Positions 59,527-60,233 of a stretch of DNA of 64,000 nt are shown here, in pieces. This DNA is from Eledone cirrhosa. Taxonomy: Eukaryota. Every line of letters starts with the position of its first letter. The stretch's first letter is position 1. Made by a program: the position numbers and the translations under genes. Where the stretch lies: positions 22,630,001 to 22,694,000 of the forward strand of contig OZ024751.1 of NCBI GenBank assembly GCA_964016885.1, read 5' to 3'. Under the pieces are notes generated by a model. That model saw nothing but the letters and a program-made list of their open reading frames with translations, was not told the origin of the DNA and ran no database searches.

Positions 59527-60230
59527 TATTATCAAATGATTCTATGGACATACTTTATAGTATATTGCTCTGATTATTTAATTTATTAATTCATCATTGA
59601 GCCACACCGTGAATGGTTGCCAAAACATATATATCTGTGACTTCGTCTAGTTTGTGTATATGTAAATCTTTATATTTGATAATCTCCCATAAGGTTGAGA
59701 TCCAATTTGGGCAATATTGGGCTGCGCTTTCTAGCAACCAGCCCACTCGCCGTAAGCCACCAATCACATTCTTTCTGACTTGACCACTGCCACGTCACAG
59801 TTCTTAGCCATTTTGAAATCGTTTCTGGCGGGGATCATTTAAGAAAAATCTTTGTCCAAGTGAGTTTGTTTCCTGATGAGTTCGAAGCTCGAGAATTTAT
59901 CCTTGATAGGATATTTCCGAAAGCGAACGAAACTCTAAGGGTAGAAACGTAATCCTGGTATGTGTATATGCATTTTTTCTTCTAACTTTAATTTTATACC
60001 TAATTGTGTATTGTTGACGGTATATTTAATCGATTTCCACGTGCTATTGAAATGTTGGGTAAATATTCTATAGCGGTTGATCGCGAATGAATTGCTATCG
60101 TTTATTTATCTACTATTTCTTCATAGGTGACTTTTAATCTTATAGCCTGGTTTAATTGGGTTTTTTGTGTGGTTGATTATGCTAATTGGGAGAGGAAATG
60201 GTGTATATATATTATCAAATGATTCTATGG

Positions 60231-60233
<3 letters not shown>
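59527..60233 (+). mobile_element. HHR-bearing unit with a 24 bp terminal direct repeat (683 bp period), in (TA)n; retrozyme- or pseudo-LTR-like
   Basis: tattatcaaatgattctatggaca at 59527-59550 and 60210-60233; no ORF; intact HHR inside. Confidence 0.72.
59867..59949 (+). ncRNA. Type I hammerhead ribozyme, intact core, extended stem II
   Basis: tgtttc-CTGATGA-GTTCG...tatcct(tgat)aggata...CGAAC-GAAA-CTC(taa)GGG-TA-gaaacg; predicted cleavage after GUA at 59943. Confidence 0.9.

What the first reader, a model, noticed from the sequence alone, without database searches (positions are those of the whole stretch)
59527..60233. 683 bp non-coding unit with an intact hammerhead and terminal redundancy: candidate retrozyme or circular-RNA retroelement
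Seen: a complete type I HHR at 59867-59949 (stem I gtttc/gaaac, CUGAUGA, long stem II closed by GTTCG/CGAAC, GAAA, 3 bp stem III CTC/GGG, GUA triplet). It lies mid-unit, the unit begins and ends with the same 24-mer, has no ORF and sits in (TA)n. Established: metazoan non-LTR retrozymes are HHR-bearing monomers that give circular RNAs, and PLE pseudo-LTRs carry HHRs and form partial tandems. Inference: a slightly more than unit-length, circularly permuted copy fits reverse transcription around a circle. Its larger size and true stem III, which could allow monomeric cleavage, differ from the usual minimal animal HHRs.
Basis: partly seen in the sequence, partly recalled or inferred. Interest (0 to 1): 0.85.

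Follow-up and report, generated by a model that had tools for sequence, protein, structure and literature searches.

The report
Ribozyme cut marks Penelope-type retrozyme insertions
This is one copy of an abundant non-coding repeat that carries a hammerhead (self-cutting RNA) motif; many sister copies begin exactly at the motif's predicted cut site, which likely means the RNA cuts itself in living cells and is then copied into the genome, likely by Penelope-type jumping-gene enzymes.

Summary
In detail: a 683-bp non-coding unit, an exact 24-nt terminal repeat, a complete type I hammerhead (cut after 59943) and (TA)n flanks. The family has at least 832 exact terminal-motif matches.

The copies are not randomly permuted. 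197 of 226 arms end at two fixed 3' sites 110 nt apart. Their 5' ends vary, with partial tandems and mirror-image arms: the Penelope-like (PLE) signature. The 24-mer is the overlap of a 1.03-unit copy.

5' ends pile up just 3' of the hammerhead bond (pre-registered replication 14 vs 2.75 expected; 7 of 197 exactly at the bond). So the ribozyme likely cleaves in vivo, and linear sense-strand RNA is likely a real template. 111 of 135 passes read through, mostly cleanly, so circles remain possible but are not needed.

I found no homologous autonomous PLE and no RNA data. The class (non-LTR retrozyme, non-autonomous PLE) is known. This scan already reported similar two-ended families elsewhere in this genome, one with cut-unit evidence.

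The parts
59527..60209 (+). One 683-bp unit of the non-coding repeat family (family A)
   Evidence: Period 683; nearest copies differ by 2.7-3.0%, median 5.0% over 92 copies
60210..60233 (+). Start of the next unit (24 nt) and 3' end of this insertion, 10 nt short of the family's usual end
   Evidence: Exact 24-nt repeat; most copies run on to unit position 34-39
59867..59949 (+). Type I hammerhead ribozyme motif with long stem II and 3-bp helix III
   Evidence: 12 core bases intact in 104 of 155 copies; common stem I variants keep pairing
59943..59944 (+). Predicted scissile bond (GUA|G, unit 417|418); hotspot of 5' ends among sister copies
   Evidence: 7 of 197 arms start exactly at unit 418 (expected 0.26); 23 start within 418-437 (expected 5.6)
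59551..59565 (+). Main fixed 3' end of family insertions (unit 34-39), the inferred main start site of reverse transcription; internal copy here
   Evidence: 162 of 226 arms end here; 127 of 135 terminal ends carrying the exact motif are followed by more TA
59657..59675 (+). Second fixed 3' end (unit about 149), used mostly by the opposite arm of two-armed insertions; a PLE-type 'tail' of 110 nt
   Evidence: 35 of 226 arms; 32 of 33 two-armed loci pair it with the main end
59720..59798 (+). GC-richer block with a CCAAT-type box, conserved across sister families; likely internal promoter (inferred, untested)
   Evidence: Alignment of families A-D; positions; motif names recalled
59968..60209 (+). 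Region predicted to fold into a long irregular hairpin
   Evidence: Unit fold -173.6 kcal/mol, z -3.3, 0 of 20 shuffles as stable
59514..59526 (.). 5' (TA)n target tract
60234..60790 (.). 3' (TA)n and degenerate TA microsatellite

Best explanation
The unit is a non-coding, hammerhead-bearing repeat with two fixed 3' ends in (TA)n tracts, likely a non-autonomous Penelope-like element (non-LTR retrozyme) that is likely reverse-transcribed from sense-strand, partly self-cleaved linear RNA. Inferred cycle: (1) partial-tandem copies are transcribed, probably from the internal CCAAT block; (2) a fraction of the hammerheads cut, making RNA 5' ends at unit 418; (3) a PLE RT/GIY-YIG protein acting in trans nicks a (TA)n tract and starts cDNA internally at unit about 39, and from the other DNA end at about 149, giving mirror-image arms; (4) synthesis stops at random, at TA-like motifs that can anneal to the target, or runs off at a ribozyme-made 5' end; (5) uncut or re-ligated ribozyme sites are read through, giving 1-2.3-unit copies; (6) longer tandems likely grow later by DNA duplication. 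Shown: the ends, lengths, cut-site pile-up, clean read-through and motif conservation. Inferred: transcription, cleavage itself, the enzyme and the promoter.
For: Fixed 3' ends: 102 of 116 arms and 95 of 110. In the 30 loci picked by the hammerhead region, 29 end at unit 24-40, though 7 of these are one segmental duplication and 1 is the window. Two-armed loci pair the two ends in 32 of 33; single-orientation arms use the main end in 125 of 128. This matches PLE partial tandems, inverted copies and tails (PMC8557442 passages; PMC3846280 passages) and the two internal RT start sites shown in vitro (PMC11167929). Cut-site pile-up: discovery 9 vs 2.8 (p 0.003, scan-corrected 0.13); pre-registered replication (note) 14 vs 2.75 (p 1e-6), with 2 vs 2.2 in the 20 nt upstream. 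Six replication arms start exactly at 418 (expected 0.13, p 5e-9). These copies have different flanks, are as divergent from each other as random pairs (6.5% vs 5.6%), and lack TA microhomology at the junction. Two of them (L254, L328) read through one site and stop exactly at the next. Stem I variants keep pairing: U-A to C-G in 8 copies and wobble or A-U swaps in 5-23 copies. Loop 3 is an indel hotspot while helix III stays paired. In the longest tandems the full units are 0-0.9% apart but the upstream partial unit is 1.2-4.6% away (L112-L114), which fits later DNA duplication. The genome holds young TA-targeted PLEs with RT and GIY-YIG domains.
Against: No autonomous PLE with homology to the unit was found among 51 PLE-side loci or beside 337 family loci, so the driver is unidentified. 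111 of 135 passes read through the cut site, and 170 of 182 read-throughs have no indel at 415-424, which circles explain equally well. Units within one insertion share rare variants about 40 times more often than separate loci do (0.51 vs 0.013 per 100 columns), also expected of a circle. Sister family C shows no clear excess (2 of 35 passes stop in the window, one exactly at the cut). Family B's 4 of 19 stops lie in TA-like bases, so microhomology confounds them. 16 of the 23 pooled ends lie 1-14 nt inside the cut and could be structure stalls. In a Poseidon element, cleavage was dispensable in vitro and no RNA reads ended at the cut (PMC11167929).
Confidence: 0.68

Rival explanations
1. Circle-first model: doubly cleaved 683-nt monomers are ligated into circles, the PLE RT primes at fixed sites and rolls round them, and the cut-site ends come from a minority of re-cleaved or not-yet-ligated circles.
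For: 82% read-through with clean junctions; 64 of 197 arms longer than one unit; rare variants shared within insertions; circles are shown for other animal retrozymes (PMC7229834 passages and Discussion).
Against: Only 2 of 197 arms exceed two units. Arms that stop exactly at the cut on the second pass (L254, L328) are awkward for a circle already bound to cDNA (inference). Adjacent units in L115 and L179 differ by 5.0-8.7%, as much as unrelated loci. In L112 the three full units are near-identical while the partial unit is 3% away.
Confidence: 0.2
2. The hammerhead is not cut in vivo; reverse transcriptase merely stalls at its folded structure, and the family is a plain non-autonomous PLE copied from uncut transcripts.
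For: 16 of the 23 window ends lie at 419-432, near the base of stem I; cleavage was not needed for a Poseidon element in vitro; 8 of 9 Xenopus dimers showed no cleavage (preprint); 22 of 155 copies have a U.U mismatch at the base of stem II.
Against: 7 of 23 ends in the window fall on the one pre-specified nucleotide (binomial p 1e-4), at the inner end of stem I, and only 2 fall in the 20 nt upstream.
Confidence: 0.07
3. Templates are fully cleaved linear monomers, and the RT jumps end-to-end across the break to make longer-than-unit copies.
For: It predicts a fixed stop probability per pass (19 of 123 first passes, 4 of 12 second passes). Five of the seven exact cut-site copies carry an extra TT before G418, compatible with untemplated addition at run-off. 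Some adjacent units are divergent.
Against: Read-through junctions carry no scars. Of 182, 170 are gap-free; by my reading of the printed segments, 9 more are loop-3 or helix III length variants and 3 are large deletions.
Confidence: 0.05

Closest known systems
Metazoan non-LTR retrozymes (Cervera and de la Pena 2020, PMC7229834: 12 passages and the Discussion read; Li, Clavereau and Pollet 2026, bioRxiv 10.64898/2026.07.22.740005: parts 1-3 of 5 read, supplements closed)
   Same: Non-coding, low-GC, head-to-tail units each with a type I hammerhead; dispersed monomers plus short tandems; proposed mobilisation by PLEs.
   Different: The unit is 683 bp against 150-450 bp in the 2020 paper, though within the 51-972 bp of the preprint. 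Stem II is long and helix III has 3 bp. Insertions have mapped fixed 3' ends, two arms and cut-site 5' ends, which the parts read do not describe. No circle or cleavage has been shown here.
Endonuclease-bearing Penelope-like elements and their pseudo-LTRs (PMC8557442 passages; PMC3846280 passages; PMC4209133 parts 1-2 of 4; PMC11167929 parts 1-2 of 4)
   Same: 5' truncation, partial tandems, inverted 5'-truncated copy, optional tail from two internal RT start sites, (TA)n targets, hammerhead in the repeat.
   Different: No ORF; the tail is 110 nt rather than 30-40 nt; the hammerhead is larger than the minimal PLE type; no homologous autonomous element was found.
Non-autonomous Chlamys elements such as MRC1 (PMC8557442 passage)
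   Same: Protein-free PLE derivatives forming pLTRs and multicopy head-to-tail insertions.
   Different: Those share 3' sequence with autonomous partners, and most Chlamys lack canonical hammerheads.

Membership tests
Metazoan non-LTR retrozyme | Type I hammerhead in each unit | tested here: met
   104 of 155 copies keep all 12 core bases
Metazoan non-LTR retrozyme | Head-to-tail tandem organisation with at least two complete hammerheads in some loci | tested here: met
   L112, L113, L114, L115; 64 of 197 arms longer than one unit. The window copy itself has only one hammerhead.
Metazoan non-LTR retrozyme | Non-coding, low GC, no true LTR | tested here: met
   Longest frame 66 codons; GC 35.3%; terminal repeat is a partial tandem. 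PBS and PPT were not searched for.
Metazoan non-LTR retrozyme | Unit size in the published range | tested here: met
   683 bp; above 150-450 bp but within 51-972 bp
Metazoan non-LTR retrozyme | Self-cleavage of the RNA | not testable with these tools
   Only indirect: 5' ends of copies at the scissile bond
Metazoan non-LTR retrozyme | Expressed as unit-length circular RNA | not testable with these tools
   Needs RNase R treatment with divergent RT-PCR or northern blot
Metazoan non-LTR retrozyme | Canonical loop 1-loop 2 tertiary contacts | not tested
   Stem II region is 49 nt, longer than the canonical 4-bp helix
Non-autonomous Penelope-like element | Fixed 3' end, 5' truncation, partial tandems | tested here: met
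   197 of 226 arms at two ends; lengths up to 1563 nt
Non-autonomous Penelope-like element | Inverted 5'-truncated arm and optional tail | tested here: met
   33 two-armed loci, 32 pairing unit about 39 with about 149
Non-autonomous Penelope-like element | (TA)n target as for Neptune and Naiad types | tested here: met
   127 of 135 terminal ends followed by TA repeats
Non-autonomous Penelope-like element | Sequence homology to the pLTR of an autonomous PLE | tested here: inconclusive
   None among 51 PLE-side loci (50 drawn from 150 scored of 10,596 GIY-YIG candidates, plus one extension) or beside 337 loci; the sample is small
Autonomous PLE or its attached pseudo-LTR | RT and GIY-YIG ORF joined to the repeat | tested here: not met
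   18 of 337 loci have PLE protein hits nearby, none continuous with the unit; L338 abuts a Neptune-like fragment across a short TA tract

The most novel reading that the evidence does not exclude
The genome preserves a single-nucleotide fossil record of hammerhead catalysis in the germ line. The ribozyme sets the 5' end of the RNA that a Penelope-type enzyme copies, proving a sense-strand template, and its deliberately partial cleavage (about one pass in six) sets how long new copies are. Ribozyme strength would then be a tunable copy-length control in Penelope-type retrotransposition, readable from assemblies alone across families.
Probability: 0.45. Interest if true: 0.72.

Novelty: new member of a known kind. 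Interest (0 to 1): 0.55.

Why it matters
What hammerheads do in Penelope-like elements is stated to be unclear (PMC8557442). In the one reconstituted system, cleavage was dispensable and no RNA reads ended at the cut (PMC11167929). An antisense template has also been proposed for these elements (PMC3846280).

Copies that start exactly at the scissile bond are indirect in vivo evidence that the ribozyme cuts and that sense RNA is copied. They also show that linear templates work alongside, or instead of, the circles assumed for retrozymes.

The test is cheap and can be repeated on any PLE or retrozyme family in any assembly. The element class itself is known, so the value lies in mechanism, not in a new kind of element. 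My searches listed no paper whose title or read parts report this footprint. Most subscription papers, and the supplements of the papers read, were not seen.

Tried and rejected
- Rfam: no gathering-score hit; only a weak Hammerhead_3 hit.
- Retained intron around the hammerhead: rejected. The GTGAGT at 59861 is not conserved in sister families B, C or D, and its T is changed in 19 of 104 family copies.
- A-to-I editing scars as a strand marker: not seen. Rare A>G 68 vs T>C 125 (4.0 vs 4.9 per kb, p 0.16). The overall asymmetries are driven by shared subfamily variants.
- Target-site duplication as the source of the 24-mer: rejected.
- Random permutation points: rejected.
- One clonal master as the source of the cut-site copies: rejected.
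- Autonomous partner: sought through GIY-YIG loci, a DNA profile, tblastn and the distant family E; none found. Closely spaced same-strand pairs on contig C1 (L191, L192) were separate insertions.
- RNA evidence: no RNA holder listed. Laying two contig runs of unrecorded type showed the 683-base go-back joint that genomic tandems also give, so it says nothing on expression or circles.
- Family C hazard: the expected values are inflated by hits to its internal TA run. Only the pass counts (2 of 35) are used; A versus C Fisher p 0.11.
- Look-up of earlier findings by sequence returned nothing.
- Rows dropped before counts: 7 duplicate or segmentally duplicated loci in discovery, 4 in replication, and 29 of 226 arms that end at neither fixed site. 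Two of the 100 places listed were not fetched.

Full report
OBSERVATION. The window lies in a 3.0-Gb, TA-rich animal assembly. 59527-59550 and 60210-60233 are an exact 24-nt repeat with a period of 683. A complete type I hammerhead lies at 59867-59949, with the predicted cut after 59943 (unit position 417|418). 0 of 5000 shuffles give such a motif. Rfam does not call it at gathering score. The unit has no frame over 66 codons, folds better than shuffles (z -3.3) and sits in (TA)n.

FAMILY. The unit drew 5,438 first-look candidates, of which 40 were scored, the full-length hits at 92-97% identity. Two variants of a terminal 35-mer occur 532 and 300 times exactly, with 0 control hits. Sister families share the whole architecture: B (690 bp, 68%; 264 motif hits), C (about 654 bp, 72-80%; 1,034 hits), D (83%) and a distant E. 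B and C carry a short palindromic helix III (CCAUGG).

RIBOZYME CONSERVATION. In 155 copies spanning the motif, 104 keep all 12 core bases. The common stem I variants keep pairing: U-A to C-G in 8 copies, wobble or A-U swaps in 5-23 copies. 22 copies have a U.U mismatch at the base of stem II. Loop 3 varies in length while helix III stays paired. The window's U at 59934 is a minority change from C. It raises the predicted cost of the active fold from 1.6 to 5.0 kcal/mol relative to a majority-type copy.

ENDS. I took two samples not selected on 5' length: all 100 places listed (77 loci after dropping 7 duplicates) and 98 of the 100 listed (86 loci after dropping 4). 197 of 226 arms end at one of two sites, unit about 39 (162) or about 149 (35). 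Single-orientation arms use the first site in 125 of 128 cases. 32 of 33 two-armed loci pair one with the other. 127 of 135 terminal ends with the exact motif run into TA repeats. Median arm length is 385 nt; 64 exceed one unit and 2 exceed two. This is the PLE pattern of 5' truncation, partial tandem, inverted copy and tail (PMC8557442 passages; PMC3846280 passages), explained in vitro by two internal RT start sites (PMC11167929). The window copy is a 1.03-unit member whose 5' end falls in a TATATA motif; position 3 is the commonest single 5' end (9 of 197). The 24-mer is thus neither a target duplication nor a random permutation point.

CUT-SITE FOOTPRINT. In the first sample, 9 ends fell in unit 418-437 against 2.8 expected, which was not significant after a whole-unit scan (p 0.13). 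I fixed the window in the notebook and tested the second sample: 14 against 2.75 (p 1e-6), with 2 against 2.2 in the 20 nt upstream. Six arms start exactly at 418 (expected 0.13, p 5e-9), seven pooled. They have distinct flanks, are no more related than random pairs, lack TA microhomology at the junction, and three are inner junctions of two-armed insertions. L254 and L328 read through one site and stop exactly at the next. The inference is that the ribozyme cuts in vivo, the hammerhead-sense strand is the template, and at least these insertions came from linear RNA. Sister families give weaker answers. B: 4 of 19 passes stop in the window (p 0.006), confounded by TA-like bases. C: 2 of 35, no clear excess.

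READ-THROUGH AND CIRCLES. 111 of 135 passes continue past the site. 170 of 182 read-throughs have no indel at 415-424. The bond was therefore uncut or precisely re-ligated, and sloppy template jumps are disfavoured. Units of one insertion share rare variants about 40 times more often than separate loci, which fits a circle or a tandem source equally. Against a circle as the general rule: in L115 and L179 adjacent units differ by 5.0-8.7%. In L112 three full units differ at 0-1 of 644 columns while the upstream partial differs at 10 of 328, as expected from later DNA duplication (few loci). Circles are plausible by analogy (PMC7229834) but are neither shown nor required here.

DRIVER. The genome has 10,596 GIY-YIG candidates (150 scored). 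It holds RT plus GIY-YIG ORFs, including a young Neptune-like family (my label, from its CxxC linker and TA target). That family has pLTR-ORF-pLTR layout, ends in (TA)n and has two 3' ends 68 nt apart. It also carries a hammerhead-like motif with the U3-A8 core described in PMC4209133. It is a candidate driver only: no homology to the unit was detected, and no unit copy was continuous with a PLE ORF in 337 loci.

COMPARISON AND VERDICT. The element works like a non-autonomous PLE and meets the sequence criteria of a non-LTR retrozyme; cleavage and circular RNA were not testable. That retrozymes derive from PLEs is already argued in print (preprint). Earlier notes of this scan describe two-ended hammerhead families of other unit lengths in this genome, one citing cut RNA units and editing scars. 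These are unchecked leads; the editing signal was absent here. It is a new member of a known kind. What lifts it is the replicated single-base footprint of ribozyme cleavage in the insertions, which bears on an open question and is easy to test. Interest 0.55.

Noticed in passing
window 15126-15174 (+), 36608-36662 (+), 53456-53501 (+), 40627-40578 (-), 36485-36431 (-), 47967-48030 (+), 45819-45756 (-): Seven further hammerhead-like motifs of at least two other families. The pairs at 36.4-36.7 kb and 45.8-48.0 kb are in inverted orientation, like two-armed PLE-type insertions.
   Followed up: no
L091 (G000:C1:145869000-145878000), minus strand: Near-complete young Neptune-like PLE: 938-codon open frame, pLTR on both sides, U3-A8 hammerhead-like motif near locus 6937, ends in (TA)n; the best-scoring copies are 96-99% identical.
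   Followed up: partly
L338:1626-2056: Two-armed family A insertion directly followed, across about seven TA repeats, by a 5'-truncated copy of the L091-type PLE (98%). Nested insertion or template switch.
   Followed up: partly
L172, L246, L266, L328, L339, L358: Copies that start exactly at the cut site mostly have TT just before the first G, possibly untemplated addition at run-off.
   Followed up: partly
G000:C12:17028712-17488171: Seven near-identical loci about 60-120 kb apart carry the same family A insertion: a tandem segmental duplication.
   Followed up: no
L375:1020-1450: Family E copy with a 130-bp internal sub-repeat interrupted by telomere-like (CCCTAA)n runs.
   Followed up: no
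L363:1540-1640, L375:1540-1640: Family E carries a hammerhead-like motif with a UUGAAGA-type first core box and a longer palindromic helix III (read by eye).
   Followed up: no
L111:5775-6994, L231: Family C and family A copies inserted in the TA tail at the 3' end of another Neptune-like family: nesting at shared targets.
   Followed up: partly
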